A stretch of DNA of 64,000 nt, from NCBI GenBank assembly GCA_025611195.1, contig GCA_025611195.1_4718.1; one strand, given 5' to 3'. The notes beneath the pieces are model-generated. The model saw only the letters and a program-made list of their open reading frames with translations, had not been told where the DNA came from and made no database searches. A program made the position numbers and the translations under genes. Within the stretch, counting starts at the first letter, position 1; every line of letters begins with the position of its first letter. The DNA comes from a phage. Shown in pieces: positions 3 to 63,557 of the stretch.

Positions 3-39
3 CCTTCCTTCCCTAGCCATCAAGGCCGGGGAAGGAAGG
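3..39. terminator. family-B palindromic hairpin
   Basis: Stem CCTTCCTTCCC/GGGAAGGAAGG, 15-nt loop TAGCCATCAAGGCCG; reverse-orientation copy at 46159..46193. Confidence 0.45.
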
Positions 40-1589: not shown

Positions 1590-1710
1590 GTTAATACTCC
1601 AATTAGTTTTTTCGATCGATCAAAAGGATAAAATCAGAAGATTCTTTCTTCATAGGGAAAACACAAGTCGGTTAAGGTTTACTTCTTAAACTCCTTGCGT
1701 TCTATCAGTT

Positions 1711-1721
1711 AGGTAATATAG
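1711..1721 (-). promoter_or_regulatory. early-promoter-like motif CTATATTACCT
   Basis: Plus strand reads AGGTAATATAG; minus-strand gene start at 1589. Confidence 0.45.
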
Positions 1722-1724
1722 ACC

Positions 1725-13239: not shown

Positions 13240-16200
13240 ATGGTAGATAAAACCCGTGTTGAGGGTGATGATAATTGGGATAACTGGGATGATGACTTCT
13301 CCCTGGATCTCGATTTTAACGAACCCAAAGACGATCGTAAACCGATAACACGCTTTGCGGTAGGAGCGGTTAAAGGTGCTGCTGAGGATCTTACTTCCTA
13401 CGAAAGAATGAAGGAGATCGCCAGAAACGCATTGCCTAAGGGCTATAGCGACGGTATGGATCTTATTGATTCCGCCGTCGGATCCACGAAGGAACTATAC
13501 AATGAAGCCGTTCGTGACGTTCTTCCTAAGGTCCAAAGCTCAAAACGGTTAGCTGCACAACTGACCAAGAAATACCGTGCAAGCATGCCCGATTTCTCGA
13601 AGAAAATTCTTGAGCAATGGGAGCAAGAAGCCAAGGAAGAAGACGAACGTAAACAAGCTGAAGAAACTCTTCGTCAACGCATGGCGAGCGCGGGGGACGA
13701 TGAGATCGCCCGCAAGGTTGCCGAGGCATTAGGCGAATCAGCAAACCAAAGCGCAGATCAGTTCGCTGAACAGCAAGCGAAAGAAAGTATCCGTGACGAT
13801 ATCGCTGACAAACGGTACGCTGTAACCAACAAACAAATGAGTGCGATGCAAGAAGGCGTCGCCAAGATGGTTGGTTTCAACAATGAATTCGCTGCACGCT
13901 ACATGCGTAAAAGCCTGGAACTGAAATATCGTTCCTTAGCGATTCAACGTGCAAGTTTCGACCAGCATAAAAAGTTAGCCGAAGTCTATATCGGTTTATT
14001 ACAAAACATCCAGAAGAATACGGCTTTACCTGATGCGGCTAAAGCAAAAATGTCGGAAGAATTCCGTCGTAGTGCGTACCAACGTTTCTTTGGTAATGCG
14101 TTAGATGCGATGAGTTCTTTCGAGAACCGTTTCTTTGCTGATGTTAAGAAGAACCTTGCCACCAACGCATTAGGCGCTTTAAAAGGCGTCGTGTCTGGCG
14201 CAAACGATGCGTTATACGGTTTAAACGAAGCACGTGACTCGATGTCCATGATGGACGGGATGGGGTCAGAAGGCGATATTAAGGAAATGCAAGGAAAGAT
14301 GTTGGGTCAGTTCATTGGCTCAACTGTCGCACCATGGATGGCTAATAAAGGTAGGATGGCGTTACGCGATTTAGCAAAACGTCACCCCAATGCTAAATTC
14401 GCTAGCGCGTTAAAAGCCGTGGATCAAGGTGGTGAGGCTGCCGCATACACAACGCGTAATCTCGGTAAACTGCTCCAGGAAGATATTCGTAAGAACGAAT
14501 TCAATCTTAGCGATCCGTTTTACAAGCAATTGTTACGCGGTGCGGGGCGTTGGGCGTTCAACATGGACAGCGGACGTAACTTCCGTGTGATGAACGACAC
14601 CGCTGAAACATTGGCGGAACAAACGTCTTTCGACGGTTTAACCTACCGCAGTATCAATGAAGTTATTCCTGGCTTTCTTGCACGCATTCTGAAAAGCAGT
14701 GAGGGTATCCGCACCGGAAACAGCGATCCAGACTACGAGGTCTATGACGGCATCAGCGGGCAATTCGTGTCTCAGCGTACGCGTGAACAAAGCGTCAACG
14801 ACACACTGTTTAACAAACGTACATTTGGTTATTACGCCAGCCGTTTCAACGAGGTTATCTCGGTCATCGATCCCGATAAACAATTATCGGAAAAAGCCAG
14901 AAAGGCGCTGGCTAAGCAGTTGGCACGAGATAGCGACGCGAACATCGCATTCGACCCGGCTCGTTTTACGGATGAAAGCAACTTCGATCGTAGTATCGAT
15001 CGTGACGCTATTAAGGAACTTTCCGCGTACTTTCGTGACCGTTATGGTATTCGTGACGATATCAACGATAAAGGCGAACGTCATCAGGTCATTGGAAACC
15101 GCGGACAATATTACACGGAACGTAACCGAGCTGATCTTCGCTACGGTAATCTGAAATCTTTACAACCGGATATCCAGCGTAACCTTAACCTACTGAAACG
15201 TACTGGTGACGTCCAATATCTGGAACGTATCGGTATTGTGACGAGAAATAGCGACGGAAGCTACTCGGTTAATCACGATCGTTATTTCTCTGAAATTGAT
15301 CAATACATCGACCGACCAGAGTACGCTGACCGTGGCGATGTCAATACGCGATTAACCTCTCAGGAAACAAGAGCGCTGGCGCTGGGTTACCGTGACGCAA
15401 AACCATCAACAGGCGACGTCCAAAATGCAGGTCTGCCGAACATCGAACGTAAGGTTGCTGGAACAGTAACCATTGATGAAAACATCGGCTACGATAAATG
15501 GTGGAACGACACGGGTGTTATCACCACATCGCTTGAAGAACAGAATCGAGCATGGCAAGAACTCTATCTCGAAGCGCTGTCTGAAGCATCCGAACAACGT
15601 GTTGAAATGCTTACGTTACTGAAAGCCATTTCTGAGAAAGACTGGTCTAATAACGTTTCACTGGATGGCGAAGATGTACCTGAAGGTACGGCACCTATTT
15701 CCTTTATCGATCGCGCCAAACAAAAACTCGGTGCGCGTAACCTCTTTAAAGGCGGCCGTAATCTCCTCTGGAAAGGAATTAAAAATACCGCACGATTGGG
15801 TGTTAAAGGCGCACGTTGGGGTGCAGAACGTACATTAGGTAGTTTGGTAAATTCCGGCCGACGCATTATCAACTTCAACCGATTCGTGTTCGGTGCGTTA
15901 TCCAAAGTCGATCAGGTTCCGTTTGACATTTACGTTAAAGGGGAATCCCAACCACGCATACTGGCTGCCAAACTTCGTCAGGGGTTATACTTCGACGAAG
16001 CGACAGGAAAAGCCGTAAAACGAATGAAGGATATCAAAGGCCCACTCGTTGATGCAGATGGAAACATCGTAATCAGCAACGAGGATATCGAGAAAGGGTT
16101 GGTCACTCGCGCTGGTCGTGCCTTTGAGAATTCAGGACTTAAAGCGTGGGCGCATGAAGGTCTTAATGGAATAACGACGGTCTTAAGTCTGCCGCGGATG

Positions 16201-19200
16201 TTAAAACGCGGTGCGGTTGAGATCTACAAACAGCTTGACAAAACGCCCGACGTTTACGTCAAGGGAGAATCAACGCCTCGTCTATTATCCATGGTGTTAG
16301 CAGCGGGTGGGTATTTCCGTCGCTCTGATGGACAAACCATCAAAAATCTTGAAGACATCGATGGCGATGTTGTTGATGCACAAGGTAACGTCGTACTTAC
16401 GCTTGCCGACATGCAGAAAGGGCTTGTCGATAAATACGGTAAAGCGATTCGTCGCTTAAAAGAAAAGCTCATCAACTTCGGTGTAAAAGCTTTTACATTA
16501 CCGTTAACGCTGCTACGTAAGACAAAGGACATCCTTAAAACCCTTCCAGGTAAAACCGTTAACGGCCTACGACGGATGGGATTAAATTTCCAATCACCTG
16601 ACGCATTATTGGTGGGAACAACGTCGAGCATGGTAGATCGCCTCGACGCTATTTACCAGCTTCTCGACCAACGTATGCCGGGTGGTGACAGGGATTATCG
16701 CGATTGGAATGGGGATGGTGTTCGAGAAGGATCGTTGGAAGACCTGAAACGTAAACGTGCAGCCAAGGAAAACGGTAAGGATGACACCGGCAAAGATTCC
16801 AATAAAGGAGAAGAAAAGGAGAAGAAACGAGGATTACTCGGAAGCCTTTTCGATATGCTTGGCGATACCGCATTAGGTAAACGACTCATGGCGAGTCCGC
16901 TTGGAAAAATTCTAGGTGGTCTTGGGGCGGTGTTAAGCGGCGGAGCATCGTTAACCGGATTGTTGGGCAAGGGTCTCATTAGTGGAACCGGCGCGCTAGT
17001 CAAGGGAGGACTAAGTGCGGCAGGATGGTTAGGCCGTGGTGCGTTAATGGCGGGCGGGGCCGCATTGAACGCTGTTGGTGGTTTATCGGGATTAGGCGCA
17101 TTCCTTATATCACCTGTTGGGCTTGCTATTGCTGGCGGCGCATTGGCTGCTTATGCAGGATGGAAGATCTATCAACATTTCGCCGAGAAGCCCGACCCGA
17201 TGCAGAAGCTCCGTCTTATTGCATACGGTGCAAAAGGGGACGATAAAGACTTCAATAAGAAGCTGCTTGCGACAGAAACATACCTCACCGACCATGTGGT
17301 TATGACCGGGGATACCATCGGATTCGATCCGAAAGCGGATTCTGAAAAGATTCTCGAAATCTGGGAATTGTCCCTGGAAGATTCCGACCGAATGAACGAA
17401 TGGAAACGCTGGTATCTGCATCGTTTTATTCCTGTTTTCGCTCGTGCGTACAAACTCTGGAAAGAGCATATGCCGGACGAGAAGAAATACATGGAAATGG
17501 ATAAATATCCGAACGGTGAGAACAAGGTGAAATGGTCGGAAGCGTTTATCTGGCCTTCTGATAGTCCTGACGGCCCGTATTACGTCGAAGCTAACCCGTT
17601 GGGTTCTTCTGGTGCGACGCGTTATATTGCTGGTCAAGACGTCAAAACCTTGATGCTGAAACAACTCGAAGCCATCAAGAAAGAGTACCAGAATCAGATT
17701 AAGCAATACACTCATGATGAGGCTATTGCTGATTGGTCACGGATGTCTGACACACAACGTAAATCCGTTGCACCTAACGCATTACGTGGTCAGAAAGCGT
17801 CGTTACGTTTTAACGATAAACGTTACAACAGCGCTGGCGCTAAAGGACGACAGAAGCTTGACGCAACCGCCGTTATTGAAAGCGTAGACCGCCGTGGTAG
17901 GAAATGGGTTGCTGGCGGGTACATCGATGAACTCACCAGTCTCCGTGTTCGCGCGTACGGTATCAAGGTTCCGTTGTTAAGTCAGATAAAAGTGCTGATG
18001 GAACTCGAAGACGCTGTGGAACCTGGTGTAGTCGCTGAAGGTAAAGGGGTTAAATACGGTGGCGATCTTGTCGCGCTCTACAAGAAATTCGCGACGAAGT
18101 TCGGAAGAGACGTTAACAGCAAGCAGGATCAGGATATCTGGTTTGCTTGGATGAATAACCGTTTCCTGCCTGTCTTTTTAACCTATTACCAACAAGTTAG
18201 CGACATGGGCGGTCAAGGTCTTCTGTCCGACGTGGTACAGAACCTGAAAGACAGCCAACGTTGGGAAATCGGTGAAGCACTTGTCGCAACGCAATACCGT
18301 GATGAGAAAGGTGCACTACAGCCTGTATGGACCTGGAATAGTTGTGGTTTCTCCGGTACTGAAGCTAACACCACCAGCAGTTCAACAAAGAGCCAACTCG
18401 ATCTGTTAAAAGAATATGCGGATAAAGAGAAGGTTCGTGAGAAGAACGCGGAAGCATCGCAAGAGGATACCGAGAAATTATCGAAGATCCAAGAGCTGAT
18501 GATGAAGCAGGCTGGGTACGAGAAGAAAGACGGTGTTTGGCAGAAGAAATCTCGCATTACCGGTGGGATGAGTAACGCCGAAGCGAATTACAACCCCAAT
18601 GGGAATAGGGTAGGTGCAAGCAGCTTTACTGCTTCGGCTACTTCCAGTGCTGGGTTGGGGTCAACCGGCGATCTTACCGGATTGCCTAACATGGGCTTAC
18701 AGAAACCTGCAACGGGACCAGGTCCTGAAGCTGGGCGACGTACGCTTGTTAAATCTGCTGTGAAACACGGTATTACCGATCCAATGGAAATGGCGATGTT
18801 CCTTGCGAACATCGAACATGAATCGGGGAACTACAGTCACGTACGTGAGGGGAACTATAAGACACCAGAGCGTCTTAAACAGGTCTTCCCTTACAAATTC
18901 CGTGATGTGCAGGATGCCGCACAAACGATCAGCATGGGACCGGAAGCGGTATTCGAACGTGTGTATGGTAATCGTAAAGATCTAGGAAACACACAGAAAG
19001 GGGACGGGGCGAAGTATTTAGGACGTGGCTTCATTCAGGTTACCGGTAAAGCTAACTACGCTCGTCTGTCCAAGACCTTGAATAAGGATCTTGTCAGCGA
19101 TCCGACCTACCTGGAAACGCCGGAAGGTGCGGCGGAAGGTAGTGTCGCATGGTGGCTCAACCGAGGTAACGTGTTACGCGATCCCGCAAAACGGGGTGAC

Positions 19201-22112: not shown

Positions 22113-22144
22113 CCCTCTCCCTTCCCTTACGGGTTGGGAGAGGG
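22113..22144. terminator. family-A palindromic hairpin at convergent junction
   Basis: Stem CCCTCTCCC/GGGAGAGGG, loop TTCCCTTACGGGTT. Confidence 0.5.
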
Positions 22145-22150
22145 AATATG

Positions 22151-23256: not shown

Positions 23257-23284
23257 AGCCTACCCACACAATGGTGGGTAGGCT
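23257..23284 (-). terminator. intrinsic terminator
   Basis: Stem AGCCTACCCAC/GTGGGTAGGCT followed on minus strand by a T-rich tract. Confidence 0.55.
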
Positions 23285-30329: not shown

Positions 30330-30337
30330 CATAATAA

Positions 30338-30373
30338 CCCACCCTACTACCCCGTTAAGGGTGGTAGGGTGGG
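30338..30373. terminator. palindromic hairpin at convergent junction
   Basis: 15-bp stem CCCACCCTACTACCC/GGGTGGTAGGGTGGG (one G-U position), loop CGTTAA. Confidence 0.5.
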
Positions 30374-30380
30374 GTAAGGT

Positions 30381-34974: not shown

Positions 34975-35006
34975 CCCTCCTCCTTCCCTTACGGGTTGGA
35001 GGAGGG
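34975..35006. terminator. family-A palindromic hairpin
   Basis: Stem CCCTCCTCC/GGAGGAGGG, loop TTCCCTTACGGGTT identical to 22122..22135. Confidence 0.5.
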
Positions 35007-36780: not shown

Positions 36781-36840
36781 TTAAAAACAACAAAAGAAAA
36801 AACGATATAAAGCAAGGTCCTCTGATATCAGAGGACCTTG
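36781..36840 (-). terminator. intrinsic terminator
   Basis: 28-bp perfect palindrome CAAGGTCCTCTGATATCAGAGGACCTTG (36813..36840) followed on minus strand by a long T-rich tract. Confidence 0.65.
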
Positions 36841-37503: not shown

Positions 37504-37532
37504 GATTGAAATCTCGCTGGCTTGCTTCACCT

Positions 37533-37543
37533 AGGTAATATAG
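37533..37543 (-). promoter_or_regulatory. early-promoter-like motif CTATATTACCT
   Basis: 30 nt upstream of ATG 37503. Confidence 0.45.
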
Positions 37544-37652
37544 CCGTGAAAAATGTTGGAGTACATCGAATTCCACCACCGCGGCTATTTTATGGGCTAA
37601 GAGCCTAAACCAATCATCTTCGAAATCATCATCTACGAAACAGGAACCTATC

Positions 37653-38474: not shown

Positions 38475-38481
38475 TCATCGA

Positions 38482-38505
38482 GCCTGTCCTTCGGGGCAGG
38501 CTTTT
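38482..38505 (+). terminator. intrinsic terminator with UUCG tetraloop
   Basis: GCCTGTCC-TTCG-GGGCAGGC followed by TTTTAT, just after stop of 37653..38474. Confidence 0.65.
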
Positions 38506-39122: not shown

Positions 39123-39154
39123 CATCCTCCCAACCCGTCAGGGAAGGGAGGATG
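39123..39154. terminator. family-A palindromic hairpin (reverse orientation)
   Basis: Stem CATCCTCCC/GGGAGGATG, loop AACCCGTCAGGGAA. Confidence 0.5.
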
Positions 39155-44978: not shown

Positions 44979-45046
44979 TGCGAAGCTGAAGCCATACTTC
45001 AGCGTTATTTTCTATATCGTTATTTAAATCAGTAGGAGATTACAGC

Positions 45047-46158: not shown

Positions 46159-46193
46159 CCTCCTTCCCCGGCCTTGGTGGCTAGGGAAGGAGG
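46159..46193. terminator. family-B palindromic hairpin
   Basis: Stem CCTCCTTCCC/GGGAAGGAGG, loop CGGCCTTGGTGGCTA (reverse complement of the loop at 14..28, one mismatch). Confidence 0.5.
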
Positions 46194-48065: not shown

Positions 48066-48473
48066 TTATAGCGGCATCAGACGTTCTTTAAGTTGGGTTA
48101 ACTTATTTGCAACGATGTTCTCAACGCCGATCATCTTGTTCATGTTGTCGAGGGTATCCTGCCAGATGAAAATATCCACGGAACCGGTTCCGACTAACGC
48201 GTTCTCAGGACGATGGTCACGGGTCACGTAGCGTGGTCTCTGCGGGCAGGTTTGTAACTCGATCCAAAGCGCATCTAACGGACCACGGTCCGTGACACCT
48301 AAGGCGAAGAATTCACCTCGTACGACCAGAACATCATCAGCCGTCCTGACGCGGGTTGATCCTTCGTACACCAATTCCATCTTTGCTCGACAGGCTGGGT
48401 TCTCGTTCCACGCCTGGACGGCATCGGCAAGGGCTATTGACGTTGCGGTGGTGTTCGTTTGATCATGTTGCAT
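48066..48473 (-). CDS. hypothetical protein (135 aa)
   Basis: ORF. Confidence 0.45.
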   Translation of the reverse strand: MQHDQTNTTATSIALADAVQAWNENPACRAKMELVYEGSTRVRTADDVLVVRGEFFALGVTDRGPLDALWIELQTCPQRPRYVTRDHRPENALVGTGSVDIFIWQDTLDNMNKMIGVENIVANKLTQLKERLMPL

Positions 48474-48550
48474 TCTAAGCTCCTGTAACGCTATCTAAGC
48501 GTCGTTTTAAGTTAAGGTATAGTTTCCCTTCCTTGGGTTCGTTTATTGCG

Positions 48551-48826
48551 TTACACGGCTTTACAGCTTGCGTAAACCACAACTGTTCCGTTGTTGATTG
48601 CCTCAACAACATCCTGGGTCAGTTTGGTCGCGAGTTTATTATCCGCACTCGGTACGTAATAACCTTCCCCTGTTTCAGTGACTAGGCGATAACGTACTAA
48701 TCCTACCGCACGCTCGACGCGTATCACCTTTTCAAGTTTGTATTTGATGATCTTCGTCAGGCTGACGGCGTCTGATGCGTAGATTGCTTTATAAACCTTG
48801 TTCTTTGCTGTCGGTTTCATCAACAT
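48551..48826 (-). CDS. hypothetical protein (about 91 aa)
   Basis: Start placed at ATG 48826 (MLMKPTAK) with AAGGAAAA RBS; ORF-track start 48889 would overlap upstream gene. Confidence 0.4.
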   Translation of the reverse strand: MLMKPTAKNKVYKAIYASDAVSLTKIIKYKLEKVIRVERAVGLVRYRLVTETGEGYYVPSADNKLATKLTQDVVEAINNGTVVVYASCKAV

Positions 48827-50821: not shown

Positions 50822-50902
50822 CTAAAAAAGATCCTCTGTTTTTCACGTTAATTAAACAACGTATTGATTTCTATTTAACGCAATACGAACATTGTACGTA
50901 TG

Positions 50903-50923
50903 CATCATGAAGGTAATATAGTC
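50903..50923 (-). promoter_or_regulatory. early-promoter-like motif (21-nt GACTATATTACCTTCATGATG)
   Basis: About 80 nt upstream of ATG 50821, at the edge of the AT-rich non-coding region. Confidence 0.5.
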
Positions 50924-51064
50924 GTGAAAGGATTTGCATTAAAGCAAGGGTTTTGTTTTAAGAAGGGATGGATTTAGAAGAGGTGTTTCAAGGAAGGTAA
51001 ACGAGGATAGGTATTTTGATTTAAGTAAGATGTTATCTGTATTTGTTAAAAGTGTATTGTCTAT

Positions 51065-51396
51065 GTTATCTTGTTTATCTTAGGTTATGTCTTATTGTTT
51101 AATCGTTTTATCTTTGTAGGTTAAATTGTTCTAGTTATCTTGTTGTATAAAGTAATTCAATAAGCTTATCTTCAAAATGATAAATAACTTGTGTTTATTG
51201 TACATGCTAATCAAAAAACCATTTGTGATACTCTTCTTCACGTTGTTCATCAGAGTATCTCGTCTATACTCATTGCATTCGTATACGACATAACCGTTAT
51301 ACGCTAACGCTACGCTTATAGCTTGATAACTCTAAGGATAAAAACATAAACTCGCTTCGCTCGTTTAGTTTTTCTTTTTCTTAGAGTTATCTTGTT
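51065..51396. repeat. iteron-like direct repeats (A)GTTATCTTGTT(G) in AT-rich non-coding region
   Basis: Three copies at about 51065, 51134 and 51386; no ORF of 60 aa or more in this region. Confidence 0.4.
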
Positions 51397-51557
51397 GCTC
51401 GTCTCTAAAGGACTTCGCTCCTCCCCCGTCCCCCGAAGGGGCCGAGGTCGTGGAAATTTTACTTTCCAAATACATTTACAACATCTGTAAACTTTTACTC
51501 CAGGTACTTAATCTTATCATTAGAAATTATAAAGAGAAGAATAAACACAAACATAAA

Positions 51558-51589
51558 CCTTCCTCCAACCCAACAGGGAAGGAGGAAGG
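51558..51589 (-). terminator. family-A palindromic hairpin
   Basis: Stem CCTTCCTCC/GGAGGAAGG, loop AACCCAACAGGGAA; T-rich tract follows on minus strand. Confidence 0.5.
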
Positions 51590-51602
51590 GGATTAATTAA
51601 AA

Positions 51603-53234: not shown

Positions 53235-53384
53235 TTCTACAATTTGGTTGTAACAATCTGCGTGGTTGCACGCTTATCTTTCTCAATGAGCGCTTCATAC
53301 GAAGCGTGGTGTTGAAAGGGTTGTGGATCTCCTCAAGCGGCCAGGGACCCAGACCAACCTGAATAAACACAAACACATGTTAAG

Positions 53385-53416
53385 CCCCTCCTCATCCGTT
53401 ATTGGGTGGGGAGGGG
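53385..53416. terminator. CCTCC-type hairpin in convergent intergenic region
   Basis: CCCCTCC ... GGAGGGG stem in the 290-bp non-coding gap. Confidence 0.35.
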
Positions 53417-53479
53417 TCTTATACGTCTTTATGCGTTCCGTTCGTTCTGGAGCGTTTTAGGACGGTTTATGATGGTGTT

Positions 53480-54115
53480 TTACTCAACACTGAACCCGTT
53501 CAAGATGATCGCTTCATAACGCTTACGTTCACGACGTTTGCGTGCCTGCCAACCGTAGATGAATTTCTCATCTTTCTCGCGTCGCTCTGCTAACTCGATG
53601 TAATAAGTGCTCTGCATATCCAGCATCGCATCGATGAGATAATCCTTACCGGTTGCACCACGCTTAGCGATGTATGCGTCGAGCGCGCTTAACGTCGCAG
53701 GTCCCATCAAACCGTCGGCGTTGATATTTTTCCAGTAAGTTTGGCGGTTGTTCATGACGTTCAGATAACGCTGGAGGTTCTTAACCGGAACGGTTTTGCC
53801 TGCGTTGATACCCAGGTCAAAGAGACGATCAGCCAAGAACACGGAACGTTTCATGACCTCATCAAGCTTCATCTTATCCCAGAAGTGGGTCTTGTAGATA
53901 AAGAACGCCATTTCCGTGGTAAGGTTACGCATGTTACCGTCCCAGCCGAATTTCGTTTTCAGCGTGGTTTTGTATTGATCGGCGAGTGTTTTCGTAATGC
54001 CGTGGTTCGTGATTCCGCCCGAATCATCGGGATCGTCGACGTAACCTGCTTCGATGCTAGTTTTGTCACGAATTATGAATTCGCAAGTAAAATCTTTTTC
54101 AGTAATCTTAGCCAT
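53480..54115 (-). CDS. endolysin, GH108-type muramidase with PG_binding_3-like domain
   Basis: SIEAGYVDDPDDSGGITNHGIT matches the GH108 EGGY...GG.T.YGIT signature; INADGLMGPATLSAL matches the peptidoglycan-binding motif. Confidence 0.65.
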   Translation of the reverse strand: MAKITEKDFTCEFIIRDKTSIEAGYVDDPDDSGGITNHGITKTLADQYKTTLKTKFGWDGNMRNLTTEMAFFIYKTHFWDKMKLDEVMKRSVFLADRLFDLGINAGKTVPVKNLQRYLNVMNNRQTYWKNINADGLMGPATLSALDAYIAKRGATGKDYLIDAMLDMQSTYYIELAERREKDEKFIYGWQARKRRERKRYEAIILNGFSVE

Positions 54116-54157
54116 TAGAACTCCTCATTTAAATAACGATTTAGAGGAACAGGAAGG

Positions 54158-54237
54158 GTCTAGAACGCGATAAACGATTTAACCCAGGCAAACCCTAGAT
54201 TAAACTTTTCGAAGCGTTACAACGCGTTCTAGAACGC
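54158..54237. promoter_or_regulatory. inverted repeats TCTAGAACGCG ... CGCGTTCTAGAACGC upstream of endolysin gene
   Basis: 11-bp inverted repeat pair 53 bp apart; the distal copy is a self-complementary 14-mer. Confidence 0.35.
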
Positions 54238-54241
54238 TGAA

Positions 54242-56290
54242 TTAAATACCCTTGGTTCCTTTCACGTGATGTGCAATTTCTTCAACCATTGCACGCAGGG
54301 CACGAAGTTGTTGGTCGTGTTCATACCAACCGCCTAACAGAACCCCGCTATACACCATGGTGTCAAGACTTAACAGCCCTTTATCTGATACGTTGATCAT
54401 TTCCGGGAACTGTTCTTGAACACGCTGTGCGATAACACCGATCTTCTCGACATCAGGATCGTAGTTGTGACGGAAACGAGCGAGTCCGCTATGTGCCATC
54501 TCACGTAAACGATCACTGAAAGATTCCGGATGGTCTTTCAGATAACGGATGTCATGTTTACTGCGTTCATCAGAACGGATGTATGCGTTAGGAACATCGA
54601 TGTTGCTGTTGAAGTACAGCGCACTACCGCCACCGGCAGAGTTCCCCCAATAGAAGCTGGTTAAGATGCTACCCCCGTTACCTGTAACGTGCACCGTGCT
54701 GCCTACACGGGTTCCCCCACTACCATCAACGAAGACAAGCTTGTTCCCGCTGTAAGAACCCCAGAACAAACGGCTGTCGATGATGTTTGTTGCAGCGAGG
54801 CGAGCGTTACGTGGTGTAGAATACACGGTGTTAACATCTTGCTGTGCTTGCGCATCGGAAGCGATACCGTAGTTCTGAACATTCCCTAAGCCTACCTGGG
54901 CTTTGTTAACGGCGTGAGGGTTATCCCGACGGTTAGCGTGAGCATTAACCAGATCGCCCGCCAGTTTTTGAATAGCCCAGTTGGTAGATTGTGGCGTCAT
55001 ATAGCGGTTAGTTGCAGAACCACCTTGCGCTTCAGCTTGGTTAGCAGTTGGATAGTTCTCAACGCTTCCCAACCCTACCTGTGCTTTAGACACTTGGTGC
55101 GGGTTGTTCTTGTCGGCGATGTGCGCATTAAGCGGAACTAACGCGAAGGTCTCAATGGACGCTTTGGTGGTGTTCGGTGCCATTAATCGGTTAGCTGCAA
55201 CACCCGCACGCGCTTCTTCTTCAGAAGCCATCGGATAGTCTTGCACATTCCCTAACCCAACCTGCGCCTTGGTTACTCTGTGTGGGTTGTTGTAATCGGC
55301 TTTATGCGCATTAAGTGGAATCAATGCGAACTGTTCAATCGCTGCAACGGTACGTAGCGGTGTCATGAAACGGTTGTTCGCTGTTCCGGCTTTCGCCTCA
55401 TCATCCGAAGCGGTCGGGAAGTTATCAACGTTCCCAAGGTTAACCTGTGCTTTGGTGACGCTATGTGGGTTATCTCGACGGTTAGCATGCGCGTCGACTA
55501 GATCGCCCGCCAGTTTAGCAATCGCCCATCCAACCGTCTGTGCTGTCATGTATCGGTCAGGTGCGGTACCGGCTTCTGCCTCCGCCTTGTTTGCGGTAGG
55601 ATAGTTCTGTACGTTACCTAGTCCGACTTGGGCTTTTGTTACTTCATGCGGGTTATCGGTACGGTTAGCGTGCGCGTAATGCAGATCGGTCAGATCTTTA
55701 TCCGCTGCTTGCATGTCTTTGCGTAACTGATCGATTGCCGCCCAGAGACGGTTATCGGACGCAGCATCACCGATGAGTATTGCGGCTTTTAGCGAATAGA
55801 TCGCTAAGCAAAGATGTTCGGTACCGTAGATAGCACTAACGTGGTGGATGTGTGGTTCAGGCGGATAAAGTTCCGGTTTGTTCTTGATGTCGTCCCAGTT
55901 GATCGGACGATCGTCAAGTTTGAGTTCTTCGATAGCCTGATACAACGCATCAATAAGACTTACGTAAACACCACCGATGATACGATAGTCGTTAACTAAT
56001 GTACCCTCGATGTCATCGTTGATGATGGCGATGGCCGCACAGATTTCTTTACCAGCGTAAAGCGTAGCGTCCTGATACAAGAAAATGGGTTTGTAATCCA
56101 CGCCGCGTACCAGTGTCTTACCGGTAAGCTTTTCGGTGATAACCAGACTTTCGGTGAAGAACGGTCCGCCATCGAGGGCGTAACATTTATTCTCGGTTCG
56201 TGGAACGGTGTGCTCTTCACCAACGATGTGGTTGCTATCGAGCGTGCCGGTCCAGTCCTCGGGGTACTTCAGGGTAATTGGTGTTGACAT
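54242..56290 (-). CDS. tail fibre protein with NPHxVTKAQVGLGNV repeats and C-terminal S74-like chaperone domain
   Basis: Five tandem repeats of about 57 aa (phage tail-fibre repeat). C-terminal RSDERSKHDIRYL resembles the S74 intramolecular chaperone motif. Confidence 0.75.
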   Translation of the reverse strand: MSTPITLKYPEDWTGTLDSNHIVGEEHTVPRTENKCYALDGGPFFTESLVITEKLTGKTLVRGVDYKPIFLYQDATLYAGKEICAAIAIINDDIEGTLVNDYRIIGGVYVSLIDALYQAIEELKLDDRPINWDDIKNKPELYPPEPHIHHVSAIYGTEHLCLAIYSLKAAILIGDAASDNRLWAAIDQLRKDMQAADKDLTDLHYAHANRTDNPHEVTKAQVGLGNVQNYPTANKAEAEAGTAPDRYMTAQTVGWAIAKLAGDLVDAHANRRDNPHSVTKAQVNLGNVDNFPTASDDEAKAGTANNRFMTPLRTVAAIEQFALIPLNAHKADYNNPHRVTKAQVGLGNVQDYPMASEEEARAGVAANRLMAPNTTKASIETFALVPLNAHIADKNNPHQVSKAQVGLGSVENYPTANQAEAQGGSATNRYMTPQSTNWAIQKLAGDLVNAHANRRDNPHAVNKAQVGLGNVQNYGIASDAQAQQDVNTVYSTPRNARLAATNIIDSRLFWGSYSGNKLVFVDGSGGTRVGSTVHVTGNGGSILTSFYWGNSAGGGSALYFNSNIDVPNAYIRSDERSKHDIRYLKDHPESFSDRLREMAHSGLARFRHNYDPDVEKIGVIAQRVQEQFPEMINVSDKGLLSLDTMVYSGVLLGGWYEHDQQLRALRAMVEEIAHHVKGTKGI
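54850..55660 (-). repeat. intragenic tandem repeats encoding NPHxVTKAQVGLGNV modules
   Basis: Five units of about 170 nt; recurring DNA blocks such as TTCCCTAACCCAACCTG.GCTTTGGT.AC. Confidence 0.7.
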
Positions 56291-63525: not shown

Positions 63526-63557
63526 CCCTCCTCCAACCCATCAGGGAAGGAGGAGGG
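63526..63557. terminator. family-A palindromic hairpin (reverse orientation)
   Basis: Stem CCCTCCTCC/GGAGGAGGG, loop AACCCATCAGGGAA. Confidence 0.5.

What the first reader, a model, noticed from the sequence alone, without database searches (positions are those of the whole stretch)
54158..54237. TCTAGAACGCG inverted repeats between tail-fibre stop and endolysin start
Seen: TCTAGAACGCG at about 54158 and its reverse complement within the self-complementary CGCGTTCTAGAACGC at about 54223, 53 bp apart, in the 126-bp gap upstream of the GH108 endolysin gene. The core TTCTAGAA loosely resembles the half-site of the Rad50-upstream palindrome. Inference: regulatory site timing endolysin expression, or a terminator for the fibre gene.
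Basis: seen in the sequence. Interest (0 to 1): 0.4.

Follow-up and report, generated by a model that had tools for sequence, protein, structure and literature searches.

The report
Conserved RNA hairpin before phage endolysin
The two inverted repeats are the closing stem of a conserved 75-nt RNA stem-loop between a tail-fibre gene and the endolysin gene of a Goslar-like jumbo phage; inside it sits a weak copy of the phage's usual transcription terminator, so it is most likely an ordinary leaky terminator or mRNA-stability element, not a protein-binding switch.

Summary
TCTAGAACGCG lies at 54159-54169. Its reverse complement lies at 54223-54233, 53 nt away, inside the perfect 14-bp palindrome 54224-54237. 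Both sit in the 126-bp gap between a gp25-like fibre gene and a GH108 endolysin, which are on the minus strand.

The window is a relative of the nucleus-forming E. coli jumbo phage Goslar (91% identity). The 11-mer occurs nowhere else in the window or in the 237-kb Goslar genome, so it is not a recurring operator or promoter word.

On the sense strand the arms close a ~75-nt RNA stem-loop: -33 kcal/mol, z -5.6, against -20 for the antisense strand. Eight relatives keep this architecture. The arms change through G.U wobbles and one G-C to A-U swap, while the palindrome itself is lost. Formal covariation is not significant.

The inner hairpin is followed by TTTATCGCGTT, a good match to the tail of this phage's own phiKZ-type terminators. 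No early-promoter word (TATATTAC) or late-promoter core (TATG) is present. Published Goslar RNA-seq shows both genes in the late class, with endolysin at about 0.7 of the fibre read density.

Best reading: a leaky terminator nested in a longer stem. An RNA processing or stability role is the main rival. Interest is low to moderate.

The parts
54242..56290 (-). Upstream gene: gp25-like tail-fibre or virion structural protein (682 aa) with a C-terminal Peptidase_S74 chaperone domain. Its stop codon TAA is at 54242-54244.
   Evidence: ORF list. Pfam PF13884. PHROGs tail and fibre families. Goslar_00025 homologue. gp25 was detected in Goslar virions.
54224..54237 (.). Perfect 14-bp palindrome GCGTTCTAGAACGC. 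It contains the 5' arm and on its own can form only a weak 5-bp RNA hairpin (-4.9 kcal/mol).
   Evidence: Not conserved: 12 bp in Goslar, imperfect in L020 and L023, absent in L024.
54223..54233 (-). 5' arm of the closing stem (RNA 5'-UCUAGAACGCG-3').
   Evidence: Pairs with 54159-54169.
54215..54218 (-). 5' half of the 4-bp middle stem (AACG). It is followed by the 9-nt bulge CUUCGAAAA.
   Evidence: Invariant in all 9 sequences.
54177..54205 (-). Apical hairpin GUUUAAUCUAGG-GUUUG-CCUGGGUUAAAU. It is 12 bp and rich in A-U and G.U pairs. Energy is -13.5 kcal/mol on the sense strand and -2.1 on the antisense strand.
   Evidence: A variant hairpin sits at the same place in all relatives. In L024 it is a different sequence (UUAAGGU...ACCUUAA).
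54164..54176 (-). Terminator-type tail CGTTTATCGCGTT. CGTT is the 3' half of the middle stem. TTTAT-CG-CGT matches the tail that follows this phage's canonical terminator hairpins. It overlaps the start of the 3' arm.
   Evidence: Motif seen. phiKZ consensus ...YTTATKYYGT is in PMC10914365. The PWM score is 10.56 bits, in the top 107 of 474,590 Goslar positions, with this locus excluded from training.
54159..54169 (-). 3' arm of the closing stem (RNA 5'-CGCGUUCUAGA-3').
   Evidence: Becomes CGUGUUCUAGGGC in L020 and L023 and UGUUCUAGGGCUU in L024, still complementary to the changed 5' arm.
54143..54158 (-). Pyrimidine-rich tract CCCUUCCUGUUCCUCU directly after the hairpin. UUCCUC can pair with the Shine-Dalgarno sequence.
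   Evidence: Conserved as CUUCCNNUYCCUYU in all relatives. The SD is predicted to be mostly paired, but the fold is weak at -6 to -8 kcal/mol.
54116..54126 (-). Shine-Dalgarno GAGGAG (54121-54126) and spacer UUCUA. The spacer holds the third GUUCUA copy in the gap.
   Evidence: GAGGAGTTCTAATG is invariant in the 8 relatives where the endolysin is adjacent.
53480..54115 (-). Endolysin (211 aa, GH108 plus PG_binding_3).
   Evidence: Goslar_00024 / HOV27_gp024 is annotated as endolysin.
53385..53416 (-). Canonical CCYCCC-type terminator hairpin downstream of the endolysin gene; the likely end of the operon.
   Evidence: Sequence. The corresponding Goslar feature is annotated as a terminator at 17603-17637.

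Best explanation
The two repeats are the closing stem (11 bp here, 13 bp in some relatives) of a conserved ~75-nt stem-loop in the sense-strand RNA that runs from the fibre operon into the endolysin gene. Inside that stem sits a weak member of the phage's own phiKZ-type terminator design: an A-U and G.U-rich 12-bp hairpin, extended by the 4-bp stem AACG/CGUU, then the tail UUUAUCGCGU. I propose that a minority of RNA polymerases stop at this tail, which would make it a leaky attenuator. Polymerases that read through transcribe the 3' arm, which then zips up with the 5' arm into the long hairpin of the fibre-endolysin polycistronic mRNA. That hairpin would act as a structural insulator or stability element ahead of the endolysin ribosome-binding site. 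Shown: the repeat, its uniqueness in the genome, the strand-specific fold, its conservation, the match of the tail, and the absence of promoter words. Inferred: partial termination, and any role of the closing stem in stability.
For: (1) Fold. The sense RNA of 54155-54237 gives -33.1 kcal/mol, z -5.62, 0 of 200 shuffles as good. The antisense strand gives -20.2, z -2.41. The apical hairpin gives -13.5 against -2.1. The G.U pairs make the structure specific to the transcribed strand. (2) The same three-helix architecture is the minimum-free-energy fold in Goslar, L004, L020, L021, L023 and the divergent L024. (3) Substitutions. U-A to U-G, A-U to G-U, G-C to G-U, G-C to A-U (L024) and a U.C mismatch to C-G (L020, L023, L024) all keep or extend the closing stem. 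Unpaired columns 42, 50 and 73 also vary. In L024 the apical hairpin is replaced by a different hairpin. (4) Constraint. The gap is 94.4% identical to Goslar, against 68% and 81% at third codon positions of the two flanking genes. (5) Tail. This phage's hairpins are followed by TTTATGCCGT-like tails. This is the motif reported for 61 mapped phiKZ terminators (PMC10914365). A PWM trained on 23 other Goslar tails scores the gap tail 10.56 bits, in the top 0.023% of positions and near the training median. (6) The motif is unique to this locus. There is no sigma-70-like site or canonical terminator in the gap, no TATATTAC and no TATG. (7) Goslar RNA-seq at 30 min shows gp029 to gp024 all nucleus-dependent. 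Read density per nt is 0.73 for gp025 and 0.53 for gp024, a ratio of 0.72 (10.1101/2023.09.20.558163, Sup. Table 2). That ratio lies within the 0.53-1.27 range I computed across annotated canonical terminators.
Against: Formal covariation is weak. There are only 8 distinct sequences and 2 pairs with changes on both sides, and the shuffle controls are not exceeded. One basal pair (C.A in L024) and the apical pair 63-79 are broken in some relatives. The inner stem lacks the CCYCCCC/GGGRRGG composition of the canonical terminators. The tail departs from the phiKZ consensus at two positions (TTAT-CG-CGT against TTAT-K-Y-YGT). The RNA-seq data are per gene, come from Goslar rather than this phage, and cannot separate 27% termination from length or mapping effects, or from processing. 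High primary-sequence conservation of the whole gap could reflect a function other than folding.
Confidence: 0.45

Rival explanations
1. RNA processing or stability site. The long interrupted double helix (11-13 bp, internal loop, 4 bp, bulge, 12 bp) in read-through transcripts is cut by host RNase III or another endonuclease. This would separate the endolysin mRNA from the structural polycistron. The fibre mRNA would be left with a protective 3' hairpin, as at the phage T7 intercistronic RNase III sites. Alternatively upstream decay would be triggered only in read-through transcripts, as at lambda sib/tI. The T7 and lambda parallels are from my own knowledge.
For: The closing stem lies downstream of the terminator-type tail, so the full helix exists only in read-through RNA. 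This is the lambda sib/tI layout. The stem is conserved and lengthened to 13 bp in L020, L023 and L024. A second nested case exists in Goslar at 170911-171002, where the outer stem GGAAGAACGUU/AACGUUCUUUU surrounds a canonical terminator. The gene-level RNA-seq ratio of 0.72 is compatible.
Against: There is no direct evidence of cleavage. The helix is interrupted by a 4x3 internal loop and a 9-nt bulge, so it holds no continuous ~20-bp duplex. RNase III determinants cannot be scored with these tools. It is not known whether these mRNAs meet RNase III before translation. Most terminators in the genome have no outer stem.
Confidence: 0.2
2. Internal late promoter within the hairpin. The phage non-virion RNA polymerase would start at the TAT(C/G) of the tail, giving a short-leader endolysin mRNA. 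In read-through transcripts the same sequence is buried in the stem. This is a two-transcript arrangement like T4 lysozyme gene e (own knowledge).
For: The phiKZ late promoter core is TATG with G as +1 (PMC4666361; PMC12809450). The tail motif of this phage's terminators contains TATG. L024 has a perfect TATG at the homologous place (GTTATGTTC). In L024 the element stays with the endolysin although the upstream gene is unrelated.
Against: The window, Goslar and five other relatives have TATC. In phiKZ every single substitution in TATG strongly reduced transcription. Endolysin read density is lower than that of the upstream gene, not higher. In L004 the element stays with the fibre gene and is cut off from the endolysin by a 1.17-kb homing-endonuclease insert carrying its own terminator. 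The ribosome-binding site is not inside the main hairpin.
Confidence: 0.1
3. DNA-level site. The 14-bp palindrome, or the pair of 11-mers, is an operator for a dimeric DNA-binding regulator that times endolysin transcription.
For: There is a perfect 14-bp dyad plus a third half-site 53 bp away. CTAG-containing words are retained despite strong CTAG avoidance. The gap is under purifying selection.
Against: There is a single locus in 237 kb. The dyad decays in relatives (Goslar 12 bp, L020 and L023 one mismatch per half, L024 none), while complementarity to the distal arm is kept through G.U wobbles, which mean nothing for duplex DNA. Folding is strongly strand-asymmetric. No promoter word nearby is available for regulation.
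Confidence: 0.07
4. No present function for the repeats. They would be a relic of a once bidirectional, palindromic terminator module, or a scar at a mosaic boundary, conserved only because the relatives are close.
For: Canonical modules in this genome are often symmetric (ACGGCATAAA-hairpin-TTTATGCCGT). The locus is a mosaic joint: a homing endonuclease is inserted at its 3' edge in L004, and L024 has a different upstream gene. The covariation statistics are not significant.
Against: The gap is far more conserved than synonymous sites. The arms changed in L020, L023 and L024 yet stayed complementary and grew to 13 bp. The antisense strand has neither a good hairpin nor a tail.
Confidence: 0.1

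Closest known systems
phiKZ-type conserved intrinsic terminators (5'-BCCYCCCCHWWDGGGRRGGBYTTATKYYGT-3'; Putzeys et al. 2024, PMC10914365)
   Same: A hairpin directly followed by a TTAT-containing tail. The same design recurs throughout this window and Goslar. The gap tail scores like a typical member with a Goslar-trained PWM. The element is sense-strand specific and lies 3' of a gene.
   Different: The stem is rich in A-U and G.U pairs instead of CCYCCCC/GGGRRGG. The tail reads TTAT-CG-CGT rather than TTAT-K-YY-GT. The whole unit is enclosed by an extra 11-13-bp stem whose 3' arm begins inside the tail. No transcript ends have been mapped here.
Lambda sib/tI retroregulation site and phage T7 intercistronic RNase III sites (own knowledge, not tested here)
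   Same: Intercistronic, irregular long RNA hairpins in phage polycistronic mRNAs. In lambda, a terminator is nested in a longer stem that is completed only by read-through, as here.
   Different: There is no sequence relationship. Cleavage is untested. The helix here is more interrupted. The phage transcribes inside a protein nucleus with its own RNA polymerases.
phiKZ non-virion RNA polymerase late promoter (TATG, G = +1; PMC4666361, PMC12809450)
   Same: TAT(G) lies in the tail directly after a hairpin. L024 has TATG at the homologous position.
   Different: The window and most relatives have TATC. There is no rise in downstream read density. No start-site data exist for Goslar-like phages.
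T4 lysozyme (gene e) translational control hairpin (own knowledge)
   Same: An RNA hairpin upstream of a phage lysis enzyme gene in transcripts that read in from upstream genes.
   Different: Here the main hairpin ends about 40 nt before the start codon and does not contain the ribosome-binding site. Only a weak, non-specific pairing of the SD with a CU-rich tract is predicted.

Membership tests
phiKZ-type intrinsic terminator motif | GC-rich CCYCCCC / GGGRRGG stem | tested here: not met
   The inner stem is GUUUAAUCUAGG/CCUGGGUUAAAU at -13.5 kcal/mol. Canonical stems in the same genome are listed.
phiKZ-type intrinsic terminator motif | TTAT tail immediately 3' of the hairpin, followed by KYYGT | tested here: met
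   TTTAT abuts the middle stem. The PWM from 23 other Goslar tails gives 10.56 bits, in the top 107 of 474,590 positions. Against the strict phiKZ consensus, 2 of the 5 positions after TTAT differ.
phiKZ-type intrinsic terminator motif | Transcript 3' ends map at the tail | not testable with these tools
   Only gene-level Goslar RNA-seq counts were available. The gp024/gp025 density ratio is 0.72.
nvRNAP late promoter (phiKZ) | TATG core with G as the start site | tested here: not met
   No TATG on the sense strand of the gap. The homologous word is TATC in 8 of 9 sequences and TATG only in L024.
Early (virion RNAP) promoter of Goslar-like phages | TTTTCACGGCTATATTACyTA-type word | tested here: not met
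   The word was found upstream of 6 Goslar genes and in three window gaps. It is absent from 54116-54241.
Operator for a dimeric DNA-binding protein | Dyad symmetry conserved among relatives | tested here: not met
   The perfect 14-bp dyad occurs only in the window and L003. It is 12 bp in Goslar, imperfect in L020 and L023, and absent in L024.
Operator for a dimeric DNA-binding protein | Recurrence of the site at other regulated genes | tested here: not met
   The 11-mer and the 9-mer CGTTCTAGA-type words occur only at this locus, apart from coding-sequence chance hits.
RNase III processing site | About two turns of mostly continuous dsRNA, often with an internal loop | tested here: inconclusive
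   The helices are 11-13 bp, 4 bp and 12 bp, separated by a 4x3 loop and a 9-nt bulge.
RNase III processing site | Cleavage by RNase III | not testable with these tools
   No end-mapping data are available.
Any curated RNA family (Rfam 15) | Covariance-model match | tested here: not met
   There are no gathering-score hits in the window. The only hit near the gap is a chance hit at E = 3.8.
Conserved structured RNA (generic) | Statistically supported covariation | tested here: inconclusive
   93.5% of cells are paired, but only 2 pairs change on both sides and the shuffle controls are not exceeded. There are 8 distinct sequences.

The most novel reading that the evidence does not exclude
The element is a two-state RNA switch of the lambda sib/tI type in a nucleus-forming phage. 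Transcripts that stop at the weak inner terminator keep a stable 3' hairpin and yield fibre-operon mRNA without endolysin. Read-through transcripts complete the 11-13-bp outer stem, which is then recognised by host RNase III or by a phage RNA-binding or export factor. That step would set how much translatable endolysin mRNA reaches the cytoplasm, and when. It would be a first example of post-transcriptional control of lysis-gene dosage in a chimallivirus.
Probability: 0.1. Interest if true: 0.55.

Novelty: new member of a known kind. Interest (0 to 1): 0.3.

Why it matters
How transcripts end, and how lysis genes are controlled, is still poorly mapped in chimalliviruses outside phiKZ. No start-site or end-site map turned up for Goslar in my literature searches. 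This locus shows that the phiKZ terminator design (hairpin plus TTAT tail) is shared by an E. coli chimallivirus. It also shows a weakened, nested variant sitting exactly between a structural operon and the endolysin gene. If it attenuates or processes the message, it offers a simple handle on endolysin dosage in a genetically tractable E. coli jumbo phage. If it does nothing measurable, it is just one more intercistronic hairpin. Either way it is a modest, local feature and not a new kind of system.

Tried and rejected
The 11-mer, the 14-mer with up to 3 mismatches and shorter cores were counted in the window and in the complete Goslar genome. There was no excess and no second site. A recurring operator or promoter word is therefore rejected.

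Rfam. Gathering mode on the whole window and permissive mode on the gap found nothing. ARAGORN found no tRNA or tmRNA.

Sigma-70 promoter and canonical terminator scan of 53300-54600 found nothing in the gap.

k-mer enrichment in Goslar upstream regions. AAAAGTT, which is present in the gap, looked enriched, but its contexts share no motif, so I treat it as chance.

Systematic test for outer stems around all hairpin-plus-TTAT sites. Most show none beyond the short GCATAA/TTATGC symmetry, so nesting is not a general design.

Covariance model R1 built from the nine sequences. It found only the homologous loci, plus a weak 20-22-bit hit at window 48473-48566 (+) and Goslar 13499-13592 (+). It found no family elsewhere and nothing upstream of distant GH108 endolysins.

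IMG/VR pattern scan for more relatives returned only unrelated coding matches, L037-L042.

The first PWM run used a wrong register and gave meaningless scores. It was redone.

One literature search was too loose and useless.

Folds of L005 and L004 used coordinates that missed the 5' arm. They were redone.

SD sequestration by the CU-rich tract. The SD is predicted paired in all relatives, but the energies are small and the partners vary, so I do not rely on it.

Full report
**1. What the window is**

The 4 kb around the finding matches Escherichia phage vB_EcoM_Goslar at 91% identity. Goslar is a nucleus-forming jumbo phage, genus Goslarvirus. The whole window aligns colinearly with Goslar 200227-237301 and 1-28220 at 94% overall.

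The genes here are on the minus strand:
- ORF 54242..56290 is the homologue of Goslar gp25. It carries a Peptidase_S74 domain and matches tail and fibre PHROGs. gp25 is reported among the abundant virion proteins thought to form the peripheral baseplate or tail fibres.
- ORF 53480..54115 is a GH108 plus PG_binding_3 endolysin, the homologue of Goslar gp24.
- The gap between them is 54116-54241, 126 bp.

**2. The observation**

- TCTAGAACGCG is at 54159-54169.
- Its reverse complement is at 54223-54233, with 53 nt between the arms.
- The perfect 14-bp palindrome GCGTTCTAGAACGC is at 54224-54237.

An 11-nt perfect inverted repeat arises in 0.4% of dinucleotide shuffles of the gap and in 0.6% of random 126-nt windows. 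That is unlikely for this gap, but unremarkable once about 35 gaps are considered.

More telling is CTAG avoidance. CTAG is at 0.17 of expectation in the window and 125 against 917 expected in Goslar. Yet the gap holds three CTAGs and two of the window's four TCTAGA sites.

The suggested likeness to the palindrome upstream of the SbcC/Rad50-like gene does not hold on inspection. That palindrome is GCTGAAG-CCATA-CTTCAGC at 44985-45003.

**3. Not a recurring DNA word**

The 11-mer, the 14-mer with up to three mismatches and the shorter cores show no excess in the window. Neither arm occurs anywhere else in the complete 237-kb Goslar genome. In all fetched loci the word is found only at the homologous position. 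The other TCTAGA sites are inside coding regions. This argues against an operator or promoter word used at several genes.

**4. An RNA stem-loop on the sense strand**

Transcribed in the direction of the genes, the gap folds into one extended hairpin:
- The two arms form an 11-bp basal stem.
- A 4x3 internal loop follows.
- A 4-bp stem AACG/CGUU comes next.
- A 9-nt bulge follows.
- The top is a 12-bp apical hairpin with several G.U pairs.

For 54155-54237 the sense RNA gives -33.1 kcal/mol (z = -5.62, no shuffle as good). The antisense strand gives -20.2 (z = -2.41). For the apical hairpin alone the values are -13.5 against -2.1. This asymmetry is hard to reconcile with a DNA cruciform or a duplex-DNA protein site. 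It fits a structure in the mRNA. Rfam has no matching family.

**5. Conservation**

The gap differs from Goslar at 7 of 126 positions (94.4% identity). Third codon positions of the endolysin and fibre genes are only 68% and 81% identical. The gap is therefore under purifying selection, as are intergenic regions in this phage generally (93.8%).

IMG/VR and metagenome scans gave eight relatives: L003, L004, L005 (= Goslar) and L020-L024. All fold into the same three-helix architecture.

The informative relatives are:
- **L020 and L023.** The arms are GCUCUAGAACGCG/CGUGUUCUAGGGC, 13 bp.
- **L024.** The arms are AAGCUCUGGAACA/UGUUCUAGGGCUU, 13 bp. Its apical hairpin has an unrelated sequence.

Relative to the window, the changes are:
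- U-A to U-G.
- A-U to G-U.
- G-C to G-U.
- One G-C to A-U double change.
- A U.C mismatch turned into C-G.

The 14-bp dyad is not kept. It is 12 bp in Goslar, imperfect in L020 and L023, and absent in L024. So the conserved property is arm-to-arm complementarity, not the palindrome.

The formal statistics are weak. With 8 distinct and mostly close sequences, only two pairs change on both sides and the shuffle controls are not exceeded. I treat the structure as well supported by thermodynamics, strand asymmetry and consistent folds. Covariation only suggests it.

**6. Relation to the phage's own terminators**

Inverted repeats and k-mer enrichment show that this genome's intergenic regions are dominated by CCYCCC...GGGRGG hairpins directly followed by TTTATGCCGT-like tails. 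This is the motif reported for 61 experimentally mapped phiKZ terminators, BCCYCCCCHWWDGGGRRGGBYTTATKYYGT (PMC10914365).

In the gap, the apical hairpin with its CGUU extension is followed by TTTATCGCGTT. A weight matrix trained on 23 other hairpin-adjacent tails of Goslar, with this locus excluded, scores it 10.56 bits. That is the top 107 of 474,590 positions, close to the leave-one-out median of the training sites. L020 and L023 score 10.2 and L024 scores 6.6.

The gap therefore contains a sequence-level relative of the phage's terminators, but with a weak A-U and G.U-rich stem. The long stem can therefore form only in RNA that has read through the tail. No U-rich tail follows the complete hairpin. 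What follows is a conserved CU-rich tract, then the Shine-Dalgarno sequence GAGGAG.

**7. Promoters**

The literature gives TATG, with G as +1, as the phiKZ non-virion polymerase late core. Every single substitution in it was strongly deleterious (PMC4666361; PMC12809450).

The sense strand of the gap has no TATG. The tail has TATC, and only L024 has TATG. The early-type word TTTTCACGGCTATATTAC, which I found upstream of six Goslar genes and in three gaps of the window, is absent. No sigma-70-like site is found.

**8. Expression data**

No Goslar start-site or end-site map was found. A per-gene RNA-seq table for Goslar at 30 min is available (10.1101/2023.09.20.558163, Sup. Table 2). It shows gp029 to gp024 all depending on the phage nucleus, with log2 change of -4 to -6 on chimallin knock-down.

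Mean control reads per nt, in the order gp029, gp028, gp027, gp026, gp025, gp024, are:
- 0.88
- 0.72
- 0.72
- 0.67
- 0.73
- 0.53

The endolysin is therefore at about 0.72 of the fibre gene. That is consistent with co-transcription and at most modest attenuation. It argues against both a strong terminator and a strong private promoter.

Across five annotated canonical terminators between co-directional genes, the same ratio ranges from 0.53 to 1.27. Gene-level data therefore cannot discriminate further.

**9. Mosaic context**

In L004 a 1.17-kb block is inserted between the element and the endolysin Shine-Dalgarno sequence. The block holds an opposite-strand HNH / endonuclease VII-type homing endonuclease and its own canonical bidirectional terminator. 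The element stays, intact, next to the fibre stop codon.

In L024 the upstream gene is unrelated to gp25, yet a diverged element still precedes the endolysin. The element is thus a discrete module at a recombination joint. These two cases pull in opposite directions on which gene it 'belongs' to.

**10. Interpretation**

The best-supported reading is a leaky, weakened phiKZ-type terminator nested in a longer closing stem, acting on sense transcripts of the fibre-endolysin operon (confidence 0.45).

The main rival is that the full hairpin is a processing or stability site. It would resemble the T7 RNase III sites or lambda sib/tI, where a terminator is likewise nested in a stem completed only by read-through (0.2). 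One further nested case exists in Goslar at 170911-171002, but nesting is not general.

The remaining readings are less likely:
- An internal late promoter (0.1).
- A DNA operator (0.07).
- A functionless relic (0.1).

No tool here can measure termination, cleavage or initiation. The decisive experiments are listed separately.

**11. Novelty and score**

This is an uncatalogued but unsurprising intercistronic RNA element: a new member of a known kind. A specialist would find the shared phiKZ/Goslar terminator design and the nested variant mildly interesting. Nothing here opens a long-standing question. Interest 0.3.

Noticed in passing
window 3-39, 2626-2657, 22113-22146, 23257-23284, 30335-30376, 34975-35006, 38480-38503, 39123-39154, 46159-46193, 51558-51589, 53385-53416, 63526-63557: A family of CCYCCC...GGGRGG hairpins, usually followed by TTTATGCCGT-like tails and often symmetric (ACGGCATAAA-hairpin-TTTATGCCGT). 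It is the same motif as the mapped phiKZ terminators, so the design is shared between Pseudomonas and E. coli chimalliviruses.
   Followed up: partly
window gaps 1590-1724 (-), 37531-37652 (-), 50822-51449 (-); Goslar 2560, 113790, 142793, 166062, 172971, 201937: A conserved word, TTTTCACGGCTATATTAC(C/T)TA.GTGA, lies upstream of genes. It is probably the early (virion RNA polymerase) promoter of Goslar-like phages. I found no published description of it.
   Followed up: partly
window 36813-36840: A perfect 28-bp palindrome, CAAGGTCCTCTGATATCAGAGGACCTTG, is followed by CTTTATATCG. It lies between two co-directional genes that are both in the early class in the Goslar RNA-seq table. It looks like a terminator with a non-TATG tail.
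   Followed up: partly
window 50822-51602: About 780 bp with no convincing ORF. It is AT-rich, with repeated TTATCTTG-like words, a 20-nt inverted repeat at 51325-51391, an early-promoter-like word and a terminal canonical hairpin. It could be a non-coding RNA region or an origin. No tRNA was found.
   Followed up: no
L004 1837-3000 (IMGVR_UViG_3300045988_173921): A free-standing homing-endonuclease gene (369 aa, HNH / endonuclease VII PHROGs, Stc1-like zinc motif) on the opposite strand, with its own canonical bidirectional terminator. It is inserted exactly between the hairpin element and the endolysin ribosome-binding site.
   Followed up: partly
L024 96-1052 (JACXXQ010002411.1): In this relative the gene upstream of the element is a 318-aa protein with no similarity to the gp25 fibre and no PHROG match. 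The fibre position is therefore a swappable cassette, and its 3' boundary is the hairpin element.
   Followed up: partly
window 48473-48566 (+); Goslar 13499-13592 (+): A weak covariance-model hit (20-22 bits) to the hairpin model. It shares CUGUAACGC...CGUUUAUUGCGUUAC, and its terminator-type tail scores 10.8 bits. It is antisense to the local genes. It may be a distant paralogue or an antisense terminator.
   Followed up: partly
window 45016-45029 (+) and 54127-54140 (-): The identical 14-mer ATCGTTATTTAAAT lies just 5' of the Shine-Dalgarno sequence of two unrelated genes. About 0.06 occurrences are expected by chance. It is not a wider motif in Goslar, where the endolysin copy differs.
   Followed up: partly
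window 11527/11529 junction (Goslar 211754-213798): The window phage lacks a ~2-kb block that in Goslar holds an annotated group I intron and an HNH-type ORF next to an RNA polymerase beta-like gene. The window therefore carries the intron-less allele.
   Followed up: no
window 54116-54241 (- strand): GUUCUA occurs three times on the sense strand: in the palindrome, in the 3' arm, and in the SD-AUG spacer GAGGAGUUCUAAUG. The 5' arm could therefore in principle also pair (6 bp) with the translation start region.
   Followed up: no
Goslar 170911-171002 (-), outside the window: A canonical terminator (GGGAGGGAGGG-CAAC-CCUCCCUCCC plus UUAUACGUCC) is enclosed by an 11-bp outer stem, GGAAGAACGUU/AACGUUCUUUU. 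Energy is -41 kcal/mol, z = -4.4. It lies between the ORF Goslar_00189 (171003..172898) and an RNA polymerase subunit gene. It is the only other nested case seen.
   Followed up: partly
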